Origin: Naegleria gruberi
Lineage: Eukaryota
Reading direction: 5' to 3' (one strand)
Length of the DNA: 64,000 nucleotides
NCBI GenBank assembly: GCA_000004985.1
Contig: GG738871.1
Shown here: in pieces, positions 21,053 to 27,547 of the stretch
How the letters are laid out: every line of letters starts with the position of its first letter
Numbering within the stretch: position 1 is the first letter of the stretch
The notes under the pieces: model-generated
The model's database searches: none
Told to the model about the DNA's origin: nothing
What the model saw: the letters and a program-made list of their open reading frames with translations, nothing else
Program-made: the position numbers and the translations under genes

Positions 21053-22249
21053 ATGTCAAAACATCAAATAATGATTAGTGTCACTTTGGCATGCTTGTTA
21101 TTGGTGACGACCGTTGCTTCTAAAGTAATAACACCATCATCACGATTAATTTCTGTAACAACTCCTTCCGATAGAGCAGCCATTTCTGTAAATAGTTTTA
21201 TTGACAAATTCCTTGATCCGAAATCGAATTATTTATTCGATACTTTTACCAATTCATCAAAAACTGTTTCACCTTTAACAGGTTATTGGACTTTCGCCCA
21301 AGGATTTCACTCCATTATTGATAATGCCTTTAGAATTTCACAACAAAAACAGAGTTTATTGGATAAACCATTTTCCTATTATGTCCAATTGATTTCACAA
21401 TTATACAGTGGACAAGATAAGATTGGATGGGATAGACCCTATGTGGATGACATGAATTGGATGGGAATTACATTGTTTTGGGCTTTTAAAGTTACAGGAA
21501 ATCAAACTTATTTGGATAAATGTCTGTATCTGTATCAGATTATTGAAGGAAATTGGGACGAAACTTGTTGTGGATCTGTAAAGGGAGGAATTTGGTGGGA
21601 TTATTCTCATTCACAGAAGGCTACTGCTTCCAATGCAGGTCCTGCAATTTTAGCTTCACTTTTATATCAAGAAATTGGAAATCTAAATTATTTGAGTTTC
21701 TCATTGAAAGTTTTCAATTTTTGGAATAATTTAATGGTAGATAAAAAGACAAGTGCTGTATGTGATCATATTTCAGCAAAGGGAGATATTGAATGCTCTT
21801 GGAGATTTACCTACAATGAAGGATTAATGATTGGAGCTGCCACCAATCTCTACAAAATTACAAATAATCAAACCTATCTCAATATTGCTTCTAATATTGC
21901 CAATTTTATGATTAGCAATGAAGTAACATTCTCAAAGATTGGAGGAACTGTTCTCTTCGATGGTACCAATTGTGTTGGAGATTGTGTTCAATTTAAGGGA
22001 ATTGCATTCAGATATTTACAATTTCTCTTCAATAATTTGAATGATAATTATCCAATCAAATCTAAAATTCAACAAGTTTTGAATTCTAGTGTGGAAAGTA
22101 TTTGGGAATTGGCCAGAAATCCTAACCTTGAATTATTTGGAGTCAATTGGGCAGGTCCTTCTCCATCCAATACTTTACAATATTATGAAGCTCAAGTGAA
22201 TAGTGTTGTAATGACTCTTTCACTTGCTGTTTCACAACAATTGAAATAA
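21053..22249 (+). CDS. Secreted glycoside hydrolase family 76-like (alpha-1,6-mannanase / Dfg5-like) protein
   Basis: 398-aa intronless ORF with a signal peptide (MSKHQIMISVTLACLLLVTTVAS). The GH76-like blocks are GYWTFAQGFHSIIDNAF, DDMNWMGITLFWAFKVTGNQTYLDKC, GGIWWDYSH and SWRFTYNEGLMIGAATNLYKITNNQTYL. This family is typically fungal or bacterial. Confidence 0.6.
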   Translation: MSKHQIMISVTLACLLLVTTVASKVITPSSRLISVTTPSDRAAISVNSFIDKFLDPKSNYLFDTFTNSSKTVSPLTGYWTFAQGFHSIIDNAFRISQQKQSLLDKPFSYYVQLISQLYSGQDKIGWDRPYVDDMNWMGITLFWAFKVTGNQTYLDKCLYLYQIIEGNWDETCCGSVKGGIWWDYSHSQKATASNAGPAILASLLYQEIGNLNYLSFSLKVFNFWNNLMVDKKTSAVCDHISAKGDIECSWRFTYNEGLMIGAATNLYKITNNQTYLNIASNIANFMISNEVTFSKIGGTVLFDGTNCVGDCVQFKGIAFRYLQFLFNNLNDNYPIKSKIQQVLNSSVESIWELARNPNLELFGVNWAGPSPSNTLQYYEAQVNSVVMTLSLAVSQQLK

Positions 22250-22689: not shown

Positions 22690-25123
22690 TTATTTCAATT
22701 TCTTTTTACATTTCTTAATCATCTTCTTGGTTGGTTTATCTTGTGGAAATTTAGAGAGATGATCCTGGAATATTGTAAGAGCTTGTTCATAGTCTTTCTT
22801 TGCAACTAGTTCAATTCCTTGATTGTAAATTGCCCATTCTTTTTTCTTCTTCTCCATTTCGTCCAATTCGTACATCCATTCTATATTTCCAAAAGTTTAG
22901 TTTCAAACTATAATCAAAATACATACCATCCATTTGAACTTTCAATTGATTTCCCATTTCAAACAGGTCACATTCCTTCGATTTAATCTTATCAGAAAGT
23001 GAGAAGAAGGAATCGGTATCTTTCACCAGCTCCTTTTCACATACAAATCTAAACTCAAAGCTTTGAGCATTTTCCTTATAAACGCTCTCACTCACTAAAT
23101 TTGGAATATTCAATTTGATCGCTTGTTGAATCATTCTATCAAGATTTGCATTGTAATTTCCAAAAATTGTAAAGTTTTTCATCTTTTCAGTTCCAATATT
23201 TCCAACTGAACATTTTTCAGTCAACATTGAAAATCTCAAATTGACCTTGCTATTAATCTTCTTTGTTCTTTCAATTAATTGTCTTGTTTGATCGGCTGCC
23301 TTCTTTGAATGATCTTTACAATCAAAACTGGAATTCCATGAAAATGTAATACATTGATTTTCAATATTACCCATGAAAGATCCGCTCTTATTGGACCAAG
23401 ATTGGAGCGTGGTGAATAATTCGGTAAGAGTATTCGAAACATCGTTCAAATTTCCAAATAATTCATTCAAATTCTCAATATACAATCTCATAAAGGTAAT
23501 ATCCTTATTGATTAGTCCTAACCTAAACATATTCGAATCTGTCTTAATGAAGAGAATCTTTCAGATTGTCGAGCCATTGAAGAGAATGATCTTCTCGACT
23601 CATATATTGAATTGATCTTAACTAATTTGTTAATTGGTTCAATATTTTGATTTTTGGTTTCTCCCTCAATGGAAGCTAACAAGTGAGCTGGAATGAAGGA
23701 TCTGTATTCGTTGATTCGTTTGGTCATTGATAAGAAGTGAGCTTGTAATTGGGATACTTCAGAAAATCTGGAAGGTTCTACATGGAGTGAATCCAATTCC
23801 ATATTCGAAACCATTTCGAATAGTGCGATTAAATTGTAAAATGGATGAGTAATTTTTATAGAACTGAACATTCCCAATCCAGAACCAAGCAGAAGAATCA
23901 CTAAATTTCCAATCAATGCACAAATAATGGCAATTATCATGTTTCCAATATAATTCCATTGAGGAACTGAAAAGACAATCACCCTTAATATTCTTCAATC
24001 AGAAATCTTATTAGAAACCAAGTGAACTTACCAATCTATATTAGAGGAGGTACATAATCTGAAAATTGCATTTCTTCTCGTTGCAGAATTAACCCCCAAC
24101 ATGACATTACAAGAAATATTCATAATTCCAGGATAGAGTTGACTAATTTCATTGTAAACATGTTTAACTTCTGTATTATTAATTGTGTTGATTGTGTCCA
24201 AATTTGCAGTTTCTACATCCCCTACGGGTGGTGGAGGGAAATTAGCTAATTTTTCATTAAACAATCTTTTCCAATTTAGGTAAATACTTACTTGCAACAA
24301 TTTTCTTCTCAACTTGACCTTCCAAAATAAAAGCAATTGCACCATCAATCGAATCAGTCGATTCTTTCAGAAACCACGAAAAGGTTGTCGTACTGAAATC
24401 CAAATAATGAATCCAATCAAAAACTCGAGTTGAATTTTCCAACCTGAACGAATTGACCAATGAAATTAAAATCACTGGAACTCCAGGACTACTGAATGTT
24501 TCGCTAAAGATTGGAGTATCTGGATATTTAGCAGCAATTTTCTTGACTTGTCCTGTTTCAAAAGTTGGAACTTGACTTAGTAAAATTGGACAAACGACAG
24601 AACTAGCTCCAAAATCACAAATATAATAAGTGTCAAAAATTGGTCGAGTTGTAATGAGGATGAATGGTCTGACATTCTCTTTGGGTGTAACAAACCCATT
24701 TCCATATCCCTCAAAATTATAGAGTTTTACAGCTTCAACAATTGGATGAAGTTTCGTCTCACTTTTTACGAATTGCAATAAATCCAAATTTAACTGATCG
24801 TAATCAGAAGTATTCTGACTGACATGTATTTTCATTTGGTTTTTGGAAGTTTCTGATGAGATGACCAATTCAGACAATGTATTATTAACCTGTTGCACGA
24901 GAAATGCAAATTGATGTTCAGTCAATTGTGTTGCCATCACTTCAACTGTCGAGGCAAAACTTGTTAACCAAATGATGGACGTTACCAATAGAGTAGCCAA
25001 AATCATCATGGATACCATCAAGACAAGGCATATTTTAATACTAATGATGGGTTTTCTTGTCAGAGATGATGCTTCCTCTCGAAGTAAGAGGTCTGTATCT
25101 TGTGAGGTTGGTTGTATTGACAT
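22690..25123 (-). CDS. Receptor-type (single-pass membrane) adenylate/guanylate cyclase-homology-domain protein with C-terminal TPR-like tail; multi-exon, several introns not fully resolved
   Basis: The N-terminal exon (24257..25123, ATG at 25123) encodes a short cytosolic N-terminus, a TM helix (ICLVLMVSMMILATLLVTSIIWL) and an extracellular domain of about 270 aa. Downstream ORF pieces (24028..24348, 23518..23982) encode a second TM helix and a linker. ORF 22811..23530 encodes a class III cyclase-homology domain (KDITFMRLYIENLNELF...MGNIENQ...RFSMLTEKCSVGNIGTEKMKNFTIFGNYNANLDRM). The last intron is resolved: donor GTATGT, 22876..22910, acceptor TATAG, phase 1. It joins to the exon 22690..22875, which encodes a TPR-like motif (EWAIYNQGIELVAKKDYEQALTIFQDHL). 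Confidence 0.55.
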
Positions 25124-25411: not shown

Positions 25412-27378
25412 TTAAATAATTTGAAATTCCTTTTCAATGGTTGATTGAGTGGCTACTCTAAATTCTAATGGTCCATTGTAGAGTGATAATCTGTCTGTGT
25501 CCCAATCGAAAAATGCAGGTCCACAATTATCTCCATAACTGTTTAGTTCAATAATCTTTACAATTTCCTTTTCTAGATCAATGACTACAAAGTCAATACA
25601 ACAATCATCGAGAGGTATCTTGTGTTTGACCTTTTCAAAATAATTCAAGATAATTCTCTTCATGGATTGATATTCTTCTATTGGAACATTTGGAAAGAAA
25701 GATGAACTGAAATATTGAGTCATGGCTGTCATTTTCTTGTTTCTGATAAAAGTTCTGACTTCTCTCCAAATAGGAATGTCAATCCACTCCCTTTGTTCAT
25801 AAAATATGATTGTACATGATTCATTTCTAATATATTCTTATCAATTACTTACCTGATCACAATTTGAATGGGCATTGATTCATTACTTTGATGTTGAACT
25901 GCATCACTTCCCAATGAAACTGATAAATCAACATGAGATCTATAACTAATAGTCATTAATTTGATAAAATCCTCTCCTGATTTGACTTTCATACATTTCT
26001 GAGCACATATTTGAGTTATGGCCGATTGATACTTTTCATGTTTGAGTGAAAGTCGATCTCCACTTGAATCTACCTCCAAGGAATATAGCTCACTCCATTG
26101 TTTGACCATCTCCTCTACCATGGCATCATATTGATTGACTTTGAAAGCAGCATCCTTTGGAGAACGATGTGAAAGTTTAACAAAGGCTTCTCTATTTGGA
26201 AATTCACTCATCACTTGATTGATTCTGTTGGCTAATCCTTTCAAAATTTCTTCCTCTTCACTCTGTGTTTGTGATCCAAAGAACCATCTTTCGTATTCCT
26301 TTACAATGGCTTGAGCTTCTCCATAAGAAATTGAAAGAAAACGTGTTTTGAAAGTTTCCTCACCCAACTTGTCCATCCAAGTATTGCAATCAGTGAGATC
26401 GACATATAAAGTCAAACTAGCATTAATTAATTGCTTCTCTGGGATTATTTTGAACCATTCCAAATCATTTTCCTTAATTTCCAATGTAGATCCATCTTGC
26501 AAACATGGGAAATCTGATAATTTCTTCAACAACTCGAATACAGCATCTCTTAATAGGTAATGATATGAAAAACAGAATAATAAAGTGATTGGAAGAAATT
26601 GTTCTACTTGGAAGAGAAGGAATTTCTTCAATGAGCATAAATCTAAATGTCTAATTCTGAAAACTTCATTGAAAAACTTGAAGAGATTTACAACTCTTGT
26701 CAATTTCTCCAATTGATTGTTATCAGATTGACAATAATAAATTTCCAAGCATTCTTCCATAATTTTGTGAAATAAAAGTGGTTTTTCAATCCTATTACAT
26801 CTGGATATACGGAAAATATGCTTAAATTCACTTTCTCCTTCATAAATATTAAATAAATCTTGCAATATTTCAATTAAACTATTTTCATCATGATTCGAAT
26901 TTTCAATCTTTTCAATTACTTGTTCCAAATTATCCAAACAATTTCCTAACTTGCTTTCGATCTTCCATCTTCTTTCAATAGGTATCTTTCTCATAATACT
27001 TTCATTCTTCATCTCAATTTCATCTTCAGCAAGATTCGAATCGTCATCATTACTAGTGAGTGATGGAAATAATTCAAAATCTGAATTTTCATTCCGATGA
27101 TCCAAATCTTGTTGATCATTTATCAATTTACGAAAATCATCAATTAATTCACTCCAAAATTGTGAATCTTCCGATACTTGTTTTCCCAACTTTTCATTCA
27201 ATGCTTGTTTACAATCTTGTGCAAGATTTGTAATTTTGTAATTGTTATTGCCATCATCATCGTCAGCATCTTTATCAGTGGAGAGAAGAAATACTTTTGA
27301 AAAGAGAGAGCACATTAAACTCTGAGAATTAGGACTCATACGCAAATAGTCCAATACGGTGAGTAGATTTTCAGACAT
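25412..27378 (-). CDS. CDC123: CDC123 / D123-family protein (eIF2 assembly factor) with about 350-aa N-terminal extension, 2 exons
   Basis: Exon 1 is 27378..25853 and exon 2 is 25790..25412. The intron is 25791..25852 (GTAAGT...CAAAG, phase 2). The spliced region IVIREWIDIPIWREVRTFIRNKKMTAMTQYF...DFVVIDLEKEIVKIIELNSYGDN aligns with human CDC123 (LVLRKWCELIPGAEFRCFVKENKLIGISQRDYTQYY...KVWLIDFNPFGE). The N-terminal D123 motif (FVKLSHRSPKDAAF) is in exon 1, preceded by about 350 aa with no recognised domain. Confidence 0.7.
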
Positions 27379-27547
27379 TTTTATTTTGTGCTTCAAATTC
27401 GAAAATGAAGTTGGAAAATTGAGATGCACTTGAAGGATCAATATTTTATGAAAGGAATATTAAGACTATACATTGAATATTTAAAGTATTTAAAATTAAA
27501 TATTGTTAAATTATTAAATTGTAAAATTGTAAAGAGTTTAAAAAAAA

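What the first reader, a model, noticed from the sequence alone, without database searches (positions are those of the whole stretch)
22690..25123. Receptor-type cyclase-homology protein with apparently degenerate catalytic residues and a TPR-like C-terminal exon
The gene encodes a signal-anchor, an extracellular domain of about 270 aa, a second TM helix, and a class III cyclase-homology domain. The positions that normally carry the metal-binding Asp and the substrate-binding residues (FSDIVGFT, IGDAY, FGDTVN) read FMRLYIENL, FMGNIEN and FGNYNANL. This suggests a pseudo-cyclase, used as a regulatory or scaffolding receptor rather than an enzyme. The final exon, verified by a phase-1 GTATGT...TATAG intron, adds a TPR-like motif.
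Basis: inference. Interest (0 to 1): 0.5.

Follow-up and report, generated by a model that had tools for sequence, protein, structure and literature searches.

The report
Dead-cyclase dCache receptor gene in Naegleria
This Naegleria gruberi gene encodes a bacterial-style membrane sensor whose cyclase domain keeps its fold but has lost the residues needed to make cAMP or cGMP; the loss is shared by a large uncharacterised family, and this copy also has a reading-frame break.

Summary
The window is Naegleria gruberi. The protein reads: N-terminal tail, TM1, about 290 aa ectodomain, TM2, HAMP-like segment, 'YRSFIPAHLL' motif, Ser-rich linker, class III cyclase-homology domain (CHD), 'DEWMYEL' plus one TPR-like motif.

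Pfam PF00211 does not detect the CHD. A three-sequence family profile hits solved class III cyclases (CyaB 3r5g, E=6e-10). The AlphaFold model matches only class III cyclases (Foldseek E about 1e-10).

At the six canonical positions D/K/D/T/N/R, the window reads Y/N/Q/T/N/M. In 53 close family representatives, the first Asp, the Lys and the Arg are never present. All six positions lie in one uninterrupted exon, so re-splicing cannot restore them. The pseudo-cyclase reading therefore holds, and it is family-wide.

New here:
- The ectodomain has a double-Cache (dCache) fold.
- The TPR-like tail is supported at profile level.
- The public gene model is a chimera that skips TM2.
- Two extra bases at 23544-23543 break the frame between linker and CHD.
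- This copy is the most divergent CHD of its family, so it may be a decaying paralog or carry an assembly error.

How the protein signals is inferred, not shown.

The parts
22690..25123 (-). Whole gene, from start ATG 25123 to stop 22692-22690. There are 5 coding segments, 3 homology-supported introns and one unresolved frame break.
24292..25123 (-). Exon 1. It encodes the cytosolic N-terminal tail, TM1 and most of the ectodomain.
   Evidence: ORF and splice model. The N-terminus 'MSIQP..' aligns with 'MTIKIQP' of N. lovaniensis P0005.
24965..25045 (-). TM1 / signal anchor, ISIKICLVLMVSMMILATLLVTSIIWL, residues 27-53.
   Evidence: Kyte-Doolittle maximum 2.62; translation checked.
24032..24958 (-). 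Extracellular double-Cache (dCache, tandem PDC) sensor domain, residues about 56-341. It spans exon 1, intron 1 and exon 2, and has 4 family-invariant Cys and 5 N-x-S/T sequons.
   Evidence: AF2 model: pLDDT 83.6, pTM 0.84. Foldseek top 50 PDB hits are almost all dCache ligand-binding domains of bacterial chemoreceptors, histidine kinases and a diguanylate cyclase; best is PctD 7prq, E=1e-5. There is no sequence-level Pfam or PDB hit.
24222..24291 (-). Intron 1, GTAAGT..CCGTAG, 70 nt, phase 1.
   Evidence: The junction 'KKIVA|RDVETA' aligns with homologs and is the junction used in P0001.
23984..24031 (-). Intron 2, GTAAGT..TATTAAG, 48 nt, phase 2.
   Evidence: The junction 'NIDW|VIVFSVPQWNYIG' matches 'IDWLIVFSVPQWNYIG' of P0002. 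The alternative TTTCAG acceptor gives the wrong frame, as the sequence shows directly.
23857..23955 (-). TM2, NYIGNMIIAIICALIGNLVILLLGSGLGMFSSI, residues 351-383. It is preceded by the family-invariant motif P-x-W-N-Y-I.
23698..23856 (-). HAMP-like segment, KITHPFYNLI...FLSMTKRINEYRS.
   Evidence: A profile of 16 family members aligns to the HAMP region of NarQ (residues 175-228), but only at E=0.38. The P-x-x-L ... E-[VI]-x-x-L-x-x-x-F-x-x-M pattern is seen directly. This is weak evidence.
23665..23706 (-). Near-invariant 'YRSFIPAHLLASIE' motif. It sits where cyclase-transducer-type helices ('LP..va..L') sit upstream of canonical CHDs.
   Evidence: Invariant Y, R, F, I, P, H, L, L. The canonical bacterial relative P0138 has 'KKYVPSDLV' at the same place. 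The equivalence to the cyclase-transducer element is from my own knowledge and is an inference.
23543..23544 (-). Frame break: two extra bases 'AG' between frame A (..ERFSSL) and frame B (TDSNMFRLGL..). Frame A runs on to a stop at 23520-23518.
   Evidence: Homology to P0003 and P0006 continues on both sides of the break.
23543..23622 (-). The only splice solution that bridges the break: a candidate 80-nt intron, GTTAAG..TTCATTAAG, phase 0. It has a non-consensus donor, and it would remove sequence that is Ser-rich, like the linker that is coding in homologs.
   Evidence: The judgement that the donor is poor is an inference.
22927..23542 (-). Exon holding the degenerate class III (IIIb-like) cyclase-homology domain.
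   Evidence: Profile vs PDB: CyaB 3r5g E=6e-10, Cya2 2w01 1e-4, CyaC 1wc1 1e-3. AF2: pLDDT 79.5, pTM 0.78. Foldseek: E=8e-11, TM 0.6-0.7 to class III cyclases. PF00211 gives no hit.
23480..23482 (-). Y17, at the position of the first metal-binding Asp.
23354..23368 (-). Hairpin N55-I-E57-N58-Q59. N55 is at the purine-specifying Lys/Glu position and Q59 is at the second metal-binding Asp. E57-N58 is a family-specific conserved pair.
23132..23170 (-). T121 (Thr as in class IIIb cyclases), N129 (retained catalytic Asn) and M133 (at the transition-state Arg position).
   Evidence: A gapless MAFFT alignment shifts this register by one residue. The hydrophobic pattern favours the HMMER register.
22881..22926 (-). 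Last intron, GTATGT..ATATAG, 46 nt, phase 1.
   Evidence: The junction 'QMD|EWMYEL' matches 'DEWMYEL' in homologs.
22690..22880 (-). Final exon: the 'EWMYEL' helix, a basic stretch, one TPR-like motif (W-x2-Y-N-x-G..Y-x2-A-x3-F..P-x-D) and a Cys-containing capping helix.
   Evidence: A profile of 22 tails hits TPR proteins: SRP72 TPR E=4e-8 in a single stretch, consensus TPR 8bu0 4e-10, CDC27 5e-5, CTPR3 6.5e-6. The window tail alone has no Pfam hit. The tail is found in 72 of 161 family sequences.

Best explanation
The locus is one member of a large multigene family of single-pass-in/single-pass-out sensor proteins. The named members are from Naegleria; other members come from unnamed assemblies and metagenomes.

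The architecture is bacterial in type: TM1, extracellular dCache ligand-binding domain, TM2, HAMP-like segment, conserved 'YRxFIPxHLL' helix, Ser-rich linker, class IIIb-derived cyclase-homology domain, and a 'DEWMYEL' plus single-TPR tail.

The cyclase-homology domain keeps the fold but cannot act as a nucleotide cyclase in the canonical way:
- The first metal-binding Asp is Y.
- The second metal-binding Asp is Q.
- The purine-specifying Lys is N.
- The transition-state Arg is M.
- Only the IIIb-type Thr and the Asn remain.

Both the 'Asp side' and the 'Lys/Arg side' of the shared active site are defective. Neither a homodimer nor a heterodimer with an intact paralog would therefore form a complete catalytic site.

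The most likely mechanism is inferred, not shown. A small extracellular ligand binds the dCache module. The signal passes through TM2 and the HAMP-like segment to a dimeric pseudo-cyclase domain. That domain acts as a conformational switch or binding platform rather than as an enzyme. Output would go through partners recruited by the conserved TPR-like tail, or through the remodelled former active-site loops. This is comparable in logic to LapD or to receptor pseudokinases.

For this particular copy, a frame break between linker and CHD, a 17-20-residue deletion and the lowest retention of family-conserved residues mean it may be a recently decaying paralog. The alternatives are an assembly error or use of the unusual 80-nt intron.
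For: Organism and family:
- P0001 is 100% identical and named N. gruberi.
- Paralogs P0002, P0008 and P0011, plus N. fowleri and N. lovaniensis homologs, share the full architecture.
- An exhaustive HMMER search found 4356 representatives at E<=1e-3, 412 at <=1e-10 and 60 at <=1e-30.

CHD homology:
- Profile hits to solved class III cyclases at E=6e-10.
- AF2 model with pLDDT 79.5.
- Foldseek hits only class III AC/GC, at E about 1e-10.

Degeneracy:
- The window reads Y/N/Q/T/N/M against D/K/D/T/N/R.
- Among 53 close representatives, Asp1 is never D, Lys is never K, and Arg is never R (always L/M/I/V). Asp2 is D in 26 and Asn is N in 48.
- All six positions lie in one ORF.

The domain is conserved rather than decayed across the family. 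It has invariant or near-invariant G-N-x-G-T, K-x-F-T, N-L, N66 and H74. It also has E/D-N just before the Asp2 position in 48/53 and 44/53 representatives.

A canonical relative (P0138; its origin was not looked up, and I judge it bacterial-type) has intact DKDTNR. It shares a TM segment, a 'KKYVPSDLV' helix before the CHD, and the 'FWNAP' and 'GNVGTEDRMSYTALG' motifs.

Other domains:
- dCache fold; distant relatives have weak MCP-like_PDC_1 and dCache_1 Pfam hits.
- TPR-like tail.

Frame break and divergence of this copy.
Against: - There is no biochemical evidence. Inactivity is inferred from residue loss alone.
- Half of the family keeps the second Asp. Acidic residues are conserved two positions after Asp1 (31/53) and two before Asp2 (48/53), so an altered metal or nucleotide site cannot be excluded.
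- The register around Asn/Arg differs by one residue between HMMER and MAFFT. With the MAFFT register the window would keep the Arg and lose the Asn.
- HAMP is only weakly supported (E=0.38).
- The output mechanism through the TPR tail is speculation.
- The AF2 alignments were shallow (6 and 10 sequences).
- This locus may not produce a full-length protein at all.
Confidence: 0.6

Rival explanations
1. This locus is a pseudogene, or a recently inactivated paralog, of the pseudo-cyclase receptor family. The frameshift is real. Translation would stop at 23520-23518, after the linker, so no CHD or TPR tail would be made.
For: - Two extra bases at 23544-23543 break the frame, and homology continues on both sides of the break.
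- The only splice rescue needs a non-consensus GTTAAG donor.
- The CHD keeps 18 of 30 family-conserved positions. The 53 representatives keep a minimum of 20 and a median of 26.
- A 17-20-residue segment, including the conserved K-L..K-W, is deleted.
- The public gene model had to skip exon 3 to stay in frame.
Against: - The downstream CHD frame stays open for 239 codons in 32% GC DNA, and the last intron and tail are intact.
- G-N-x-G-T, K-x-F-T, N-L, H74 and N66 are kept.
- A single-base assembly error would give the same picture.
- The deletion is in-frame and leaves a loop of ordinary length for CHDs in general (alignment).
Confidence: 0.3
2. The degenerate CHD works as the non-catalytic half of a heterodimer with a catalytically competent Naegleria cyclase. 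This would resemble C2 of mammalian adenylyl cyclase or one subunit of soluble guanylyl cyclase, and would tune or inhibit cNMP synthesis in response to the dCache ligand.
For: - Class III cyclases are obligate dimers with active sites shared between subunits (established knowledge).
- Naegleria encodes at least 81 cyclases (PMC9928731).
- Thr and Asn on the 'C2 side' are retained.
Against: - A productive C2-like partner must supply Lys/Glu and Arg. Both are absent in all 53 close representatives.
- The Asp side is also dead. A heterodimer with a canonical subunit would therefore have no complete site and could only be inhibitory.
- No partner has been identified, and no cyclase gene lies nearby: tblastn of the window with this gene's own product finds only this gene.
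Confidence: 0.15
3. The domain is still an enzyme, or a nucleotide-binding sensor, that uses relocated residues. The conserved acidic residues at Asp1+2 (E19) and Asp2-2 (E57), with N58, N66 and H74, would form a new metal or nucleotide site.
For: - Family-specific conservation sits exactly on the former active-site loops: E/D at Asp2-2 in 48/53, N at Asp2-1 in 44/53, E/D at Asp1+2 in 31/53, and N66 in 53/53.
- Asn is retained in 48/53.
Against: - There is no precedent that I know of for a class III cyclase working without the first Asp and the Arg.
- The Arg position is uniformly hydrophobic.
- E19 is replaced by G, Q or K in many members.
Confidence: 0.08
4. The resemblance to a cyclase-homology domain is a chance or low-complexity artefact.
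For: PF00211 gives no hit at E<=1 for the window protein or for P0002 and P0003.
Against: - Profile hits to three independent solved class III cyclases cover about 160 residues with consistent register.
- All of the top 50 Foldseek hits are class III cyclases.
- More distant family members do reach PF00211 (P0075 36.8 bits, P0077 29.7, P0072 28.3; cut-off 21.9).
- UniRef names the orthologs 'Guanylate cyclase domain-containing protein'.
Confidence: 0.01

Closest known systems
Bacterial class IIIb membrane adenylyl cyclases with a periplasmic Cache-type sensor and HAMP. The catalytic domains compared were P. aeruginosa CyaB 3r5g, Synechocystis Cya2 2w01 and Spirulina CyaC 1wc1. The nearest whole-architecture relative found here is P0138.
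   Same: - Same order of modules: a TM segment, a linker and a conserved helix ('KKYVPSDLV') before the CHD. I read a Cache-type sensor and HAMP in P0138 from its sequence only; I did not test them.
- Same CHD fold.
- Shared IIIb-type motifs: Thr at the specificity position, G-N-[VI]-G-[ST]...[KR]-x-[FY]-T-x-x-G, and 'WNA' after beta3.
   Different: - Both metal-binding Asp, the Lys and the Arg are replaced.
- A Ser-rich insert of 40-90 aa separates the helix from the CHD in most members.
- A C-terminal DEWMYEL plus TPR-like tail is added.
- The ectodomain has conserved Cys pairs and glycosylation sequons, as expected for a eukaryotic surface protein.
The pseudosymmetric, degenerate half-sites of heterodimeric class III cyclases: mammalian AC C1/C2 (1cjk, the forskolin site) and soluble guanylyl cyclase alpha/beta (3uvj, 4ni2).
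   Same: A class III domain that has lost part of the catalytic set and serves regulation rather than catalysis. These structures are among the fold matches.
   Different: In those enzymes each subunit keeps the complementary half, so one site is active. Here both halves are defective in the same polypeptide, family-wide.
LapD-type receptors with degenerate GGDEF/EAL domains: TM, periplasmic sensor, HAMP, then dead nucleotide-cyclase-fold output.
   Same: The logic is the same: membrane sensor, HAMP, then a catalytically dead domain of the cyclase/palm fold used for binding or conformational signalling. This comparison is from established knowledge (see PMC6050961, listed) and is an analogy only.
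   Different: It is a different domain family (GGDEF/EAL, not CHD), it is bacterial, and its signalling is inside-out and driven by c-di-GMP. No homology was tested here.
Alveolate ion-channel/adenylyl cyclase fusions with a C-terminal TPR-like region (Paramecium, Plasmodium ACalpha). Recalled from my own knowledge and not tested here.
   Same: A eukaryotic membrane protein with a class III CHD followed by a TPR-like C-terminus.
   Different: Those CHDs are catalytically active and are joined to a K+-channel-like module, not to dCache/HAMP.

Membership tests
Class III nucleotide cyclase (cyclase-homology domain, PF00211) | CHD fold and detectable sequence homology to solved class III cyclases | tested here: met
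   Family profile vs PDB: 3r5g E=6e-10, 2w01 1e-4, 1wc1 1e-3. AF2 model plus Foldseek: E=8e-11, TM 0.6-0.7, and all top 50 hits are class III AC/GC.
Class III nucleotide cyclase (cyclase-homology domain, PF00211) | Reaches the Pfam PF00211 gathering score | tested here: not met
   No PF00211 hit at E<=1 for the window protein, nor for P0002 and P0003 at E<=10. Only more distant relatives reach it.
Class III nucleotide cyclase (cyclase-homology domain, PF00211) | Two metal-binding Asp (beta1 end and beta2-beta3 hairpin) | tested here: not met
   The window has Y17 and Q59. Asp1 is absent in 53/53 close representatives, and Asp2 is present in 26/53.
Class III nucleotide cyclase (cyclase-homology domain, PF00211) | Purine-specifying pair (Lys + Asp/Thr for ATP, Glu + Cys/Gly etc. 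for GTP) | tested here: not met
   The Lys/Glu position is N55 and is never K in 53 representatives. The Thr of IIIb type is retained (T121; T in 30/53 and S in 11/53).
Class III nucleotide cyclase (cyclase-homology domain, PF00211) | Transition-state Asn and Arg on helix alpha4 | tested here: not met
   With the HMMER register, Asn is kept (N129; 48/53) and the Arg position is M133 (L/M/I/V in 53/53). With the MAFFT register it would be A128 and R132. In neither register are both present.
Class III nucleotide cyclase (cyclase-homology domain, PF00211) | Cyclase activity (ATP to cAMP or GTP to cGMP) | not testable with these tools
   This needs an enzyme assay.
dCache (double Cache / tandem PDC) extracellular sensor domains | Long N-terminal helix followed by two PDC (alpha/beta) modules between two TM helices | tested here: met
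   The AF2 model (pLDDT 83.6) has a 46-residue N-terminal helix followed by two alpha/beta modules. The Foldseek top hits are dCache ligand-binding domains: PctD 7prq E=1e-5, TlpA, TlpC 5wbf, PscC, TlpQ, Tlp3, PctA/B/C.
dCache (double Cache / tandem PDC) extracellular sensor domains | Match to Pfam dCache_1 or MCP-like PDC models | tested here: not met
   No such hit for the window or for 9 close homologs at E<=1, and no PDB sequence hit. Distant family members give sub-threshold hits to MCP-like_PDC_1 (6.6e-5) and dCache_1 (1.9e-6).
HAMP domain | About 50-residue two-helix module after TM2, with a conserved Pro and heptad pattern | tested here: inconclusive
   A 16-sequence profile aligns to the NarQ HAMP region 175-228 at E=0.38. 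Pfam gives no HAMP hit.
TPR (tetratricopeptide repeat) | 34-residue helix-turn-helix motif with the G8, Y/L11, A20, F24, P32 pattern | tested here: met
   A family tail profile hits TPR proteins: SRP72 E=4e-8, consensus TPR 4e-10, CDC27 5e-5, CTPR3 6.5e-6. Distant relatives give sub-threshold Fis1_TPR_C hits (E 2.4e-4 and 5e-3, below the 25.3-bit cut-off). The window tail alone has no Pfam hit. There is a single motif, not an array.
Processed or unitary pseudogene | Disabling lesion (frameshift or stop) in otherwise homologous coding sequence | tested here: inconclusive
   One frame break at 23544-23543. It could be real, an assembly error, or bypassed by an 80-nt intron with a GTTAAG donor. 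No independent sequence of the locus was found.

The most novel reading that the evidence does not exclude
The dCache / HAMP-like / dead-CHD / TPR proteins would be a large, previously unrecognised eukaryotic receptor family. There are tens of paralogs per Naegleria genome and hundreds of 50%-identity clusters in environmental data.

In this reading, a bacterial-type class IIIb cyclase was converted into a non-catalytic signalling module. The module has a new conserved polar site (E-N hairpin, invariant Asn and His). It acts as a nucleotide or ligand sensor, or as a partner-binding switch, with output through the TPR tail.

It would also mean that Cache-type extracellular sensing is far more common in Naegleria than the single protein reported from sequence models (PMC4822843).
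Probability: 0.3. Interest if true: 0.65.

Novelty: new variant of a known kind. Interest (0 to 1): 0.45.

Why it matters
Naegleria is credited with about 80-100 membrane cyclases as its main environmental sensors. If a sizeable subfamily of these is catalytically dead, counts of 'cyclases' overstate cAMP/cGMP-generating capacity, and a different, unknown output mechanism exists downstream of bacterial-type dCache sensors in a eukaryote.

The family would be a clean natural example of a pseudoenzyme receptor derived from a class III cyclase. It includes homologs in the pathogen N. fowleri. It also shows that structure-based searches find Cache domains in eukaryotes that sequence models miss.

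For this particular locus the practical value is smaller. The public gene model is chimeric and needs correcting, and the copy may be decaying.

Tried and rejected
1. Pfam on the spliced protein and on paralogs gave no PF00211, HAMP, Cache or TPR hit. I therefore moved to family profiles and structure prediction.

2. I submitted my spliced protein to the search of protein representatives and structure prediction. I worked around this with contiguous ORF pieces and a substring of P0001.

3. Model A is an intron from 23622 to 23504, which gives canonical spacing between the 'IPAHLL' helix and beta1. I rejected it because it deletes 'SNMFRLGLINK', which is conserved in homologs and aligns with the start of CyaB's CHD.

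4. The TTTCAG acceptor for intron 2 gives the wrong frame and loses TM2.

5. The public model P0001 is rejected as chimeric. It fuses the upstream D123-domain gene to this gene and skips exon 3 with TM2 and the HAMP-like segment, although that exon is the most conserved part of the family.

6. I searched for paralogs inside the window by tblastn; none was found. Only my spliced product served as query, because the P0002 and P0003 files were not yet available.

7. I searched for an independent copy of the frame-break region in metagenome contigs; there were 0 hits. No near-identical transcript-derived proteins were found.

8. The MAFFT-based tabulation of the Asn/Arg columns was set aside in favour of hmmalign. 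The MAFFT register would place an invariant polar Asn on a canonical hydrophobic position.

9. Literature searches for pseudo-cyclase or Naegleria cyclase degeneracy found nothing relevant in the held library.

10. A PDB sequence search with the ectodomain profile gave nothing.
Full report
**What is there**

The window is AT-rich (about 33% GC) eukaryotic DNA with short introns. A search with the spliced product returned a 100% identical 'predicted protein [Naegleria gruberi]' (P0001).

The gene lies on the minus strand, from the ATG at 25123 to the stop at 22692-22690. I rebuilt the exons from the sequence and checked every junction against homologs.

- Exon 1 is 25123-24292.
- Intron 1 is GTAAGT..CCGTAG, 70 nt, phase 1.
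- Exon 2 is 24221-24032.
- Intron 2 is GTAAGT..TATTAAG, 48 nt. Its junction 'IDW|VIVFSVPQWNYIG' is exactly what the paralog P0002 reads.
- Exon 3 runs from 23983.
- The CHD exon ends at 22927.
- The last intron is GTATGT..ATATAG, 46 nt, phase 1.
- The final exon is 22880-22690. Homologs read 'DEWMYEL' across its junction.

**The frame break**

The linker at the end of exon 3 is in frame A and reads '..ESRRSFSSMARQSERFSSL', running on to a stop at 23520-23518. The cyclase-like exon is in frame B and reads 'TDSNMFRLGLINKDITFMRL..'. No consensus intron lies between them.

Homologs read straight through. N. fowleri-type P0003 has '..STFSSKLATNSMFKIGFEKRKIS' and P0006 has '..SSSMKPVSKSLFRLGLEKRALT'. 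The window therefore carries two surplus bases, equivalent to a one-base deletion, at 23544-23543.

There are three readings:
- a real frameshift, making this a pseudogene or truncated product;
- an assembly error;
- an 80-nt intron, 23622..23543, GTTAAG..TTCATTAAG.

The intron is the only splice that bridges the frames. Its donor is non-consensus, and it would remove sequence that is Ser-rich, like the coding linker of homologs.

I found no independent sequence of the locus. The public model P0001 avoids the problem by skipping exon 3 altogether, so it loses TM2 and the HAMP-like segment. It is also fused to the upstream D123-domain gene. It is a chimera.

**Is it a cyclase-homology domain?**

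Pfam says no. PF00211 does not appear even at E<=1 for the window protein, nor at E<=10 for P0002 and P0003.

Three other lines of evidence say yes.
- A profile of just three family CHDs hits solved class III cyclases over about 160 residues, in one consistent register. The hits are P. aeruginosa CyaB 3r5g (E=6.2e-10), Cya2 2w01 (1.1e-4), CyaC 1wc1 (1.4e-3) and the photoactivated cyclases.
- An AlphaFold2 model of the window's own exon (201 aa, pLDDT 79.5, pTM 0.78) has a beta-alpha-beta-beta-alpha-beta order that I judge typical of CHDs. Its top 50 PDB matches are all class III adenylyl or guanylyl cyclases (best E=7.8e-11, TM 0.6-0.7).
- More distant family members do reach PF00211, and UniRef names the orthologs 'Guanylate cyclase domain-containing protein'.

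**Are the catalytic residues gone?**

I aligned the window, 128 family representatives and three solved cyclases to the family HMM. The canonical set in CyaB and CyaC is D, K, D, T, N, R. These are metal Asp 1, purine Lys, metal Asp 2, the IIIb Thr, the Asn and the Arg.

The window reads Y17, N55, Q59, T121, N129, M133. The codons were verified.

Among the 53 close representatives (each standing for a 50%-identity cluster):

| Position | State in 53 close representatives |
|---|---|
| Asp1 | never Asp (Y/H/L/K/R/F) |
| Lys | never Lys |
| Arg | always L/M/I/V |
| Asp2 | Asp in 26 |
| Asn | Asn in 48 |
| Thr/Ser | 41 |

A gapless MAFFT alignment shifts the alpha4 register by one, giving A128 and R132. 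The HMMER register is better, because it keeps the canonical hydrophobic positions +1 and +5 and the downstream Ala. Neither register gives both Asn and Arg.

All six positions lie in one uninterrupted exon, so no re-splicing can restore them.

The first Asp corresponds to Y in 'RLYIE', not to R. The second corresponds to Q in 'NIENQC', not to N in 'FMGN'.

**Family context**

An exhaustive HMMER scan of 1.84 billion cluster representatives found 4356 proteins at E<=1e-3, 412 at <=1e-10 and 60 at <=1e-30.

Named members are N. gruberi paralogs (P0002, P0008, P0011) and N. fowleri and N. lovaniensis proteins (P0004-P0006, P0159). Others come from metagenomes and unnamed assemblies.

The domain is not decaying at family level. 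G-N-x-G-T, K-x-F-T, N-L, N66 (53/53) and H74 (50/53) are conserved. So are an E/D-N pair just before the Asp2 position (48/53 and 44/53) and an acidic residue two after Asp1 (31/53). The former active-site loops are thus under selection for a different set of polar residues.

One hit, P0138, is a canonical cyclase that I judge bacterial-type. It has intact DKDTNR, a TM segment and a 'KKYVPSDLV' helix before the CHD, and the shared motifs 'FWNAP' and 'GNVGTEDRMSYTALG'. It points to a class IIIb sensor-linked membrane cyclase as the ancestral type.

**The other modules**

- Ectodomain. It has no sequence-level match. Its AF2 model (pLDDT 83.6, pTM 0.84) has a 46-residue helix followed by two alpha/beta modules. 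Its PDB matches are almost all double-Cache ligand-binding domains of bacterial chemoreceptors and sensor kinases, including PctD, TlpA, TlpC, PscC, TlpQ, Tlp3 and PctA-C. Distant relatives give sub-threshold dCache_1 and MCP-like_PDC_1 hits. Four invariant Cys and five sequons fit an extracellular location.
- Segment after TM2. It looks like HAMP but is only weakly supported (NarQ HAMP, E=0.38).
- Tail. A 22-sequence tail profile hits TPR proteins: SRP72 4e-8 in a single stretch, consensus TPR 4e-10, CDC27 5e-5, CTPR3 6.5e-6. 'DEWMYEL' plus this motif recurs in 72 of 161 collected sequences. It is a single motif with a capping helix.

**How it most likely works**

Shown:
- a bacterial-type sensor architecture;
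- a conserved but catalytically stripped CHD;
- a conserved TPR-like tail.

Inferred:
- A ligand binding to dCache is relayed through TM2 and the HAMP-like segment to a dimeric pseudo-CHD.
- The pseudo-CHD acts as a conformational switch or binding platform, with output through the tail or the remodelled loops.

The Asp side and the Lys/Arg side are both defective. A heterodimer with an intact paralog would therefore have no complete site, so at most it could inhibit. I rank the C2-like partner idea below the stand-alone pseudo-enzyme idea for that reason. A relocated metal or nucleotide site cannot be excluded.

**This copy**

Three things raise the chance that this locus is a decaying paralog. 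I put it at about 0.3.
- It has the frame break.
- Its CHD lacks a 17-20-residue segment present in all compared homologs.
- It keeps 18 of 30 family-conserved positions, below the minimum (20) and the median (26) of the 53 representatives.

Against that, 239 codons stay open downstream in AT-rich DNA, and the last intron and the tail are intact.

**Novelty**

Degenerate class III domains are known as halves of heterodimeric cyclases. Dead cyclase-fold outputs behind HAMP are known for GGDEF/EAL proteins such as LapD.

I found no description of a eukaryotic dCache / HAMP / fully degenerate CHD / TPR family. A 2016 survey reported Cache in only one Naegleria protein (PMC4822843).

I rate this a new variant of a known kind. 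Interest is moderate for the family and lower for this possibly defective copy.

Noticed in passing
window 25412-27441 (minus strand), and protein P0001: The public N. gruberi model P0001 (1006 aa) is chimeric. Its first 530 or so residues come from the upstream ORF 25849-27441. That ORF contains a 'KLSHRSPKDA' motif, which I recall as D123/CDC123-like. The adjacent ORF 25412-25732 matches Pfam D123 (E=8e-5, 22.4 bits, just below the 24-bit cut-off). The model then jumps into the receptor gene downstream of TM1 and skips exon 3.
   Followed up: partly
window 21053-22249 (+): The convergent downstream neighbour is an intron-less 398-aa ORF with a hydrophobic N-terminus that looks like a signal peptide, and a clear glycosyl hydrolase family 76 domain (PF03663, E=7e-32).
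   Followed up: partly
family-wide (P0002-P0031); window 24032-24958: The ectodomains of this family are dCache by fold but invisible to Pfam Cache models. A 2016 survey (PMC4822843) counted only one Cache protein in Naegleria, so Cache sensors in this genus are probably much more numerous than reported.
   Followed up: partly
L001:884-4789 (GCA_037189345.1 contig JBBCKJ010003955.1), protein P0077: A distant relative carries a long N-terminal ankyrin-repeat region in front of the same sensor / degenerate CHD / 'DEWVEDL'-TPR module. Several other representatives of about 1150-1300 aa do the same (P0083 and P0091 were scanned). In P0077 the gene is a single uninterrupted ORF, next to an isochorismatase gene. 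The organism was not identified.
   Followed up: no
window 23543-23650: The two surplus bases at the frame break are 'AG' and sit exactly where an acceptor would be. They could mark either a one-base deletion or a newly exploited splice acceptor that rescues the frame, at the cost of the Ser-rich linker.
   Followed up: partly
CHD alignment, columns around Asp2 (window 23354-23368): Family-specific conserved polar residues sit on the former active-site loops or at former Gly positions: E/D-N before the Asp2 position, invariant N66 replacing a canonical Gly, and H74. This suggests a new functional site, not simple decay.
   Followed up: partly
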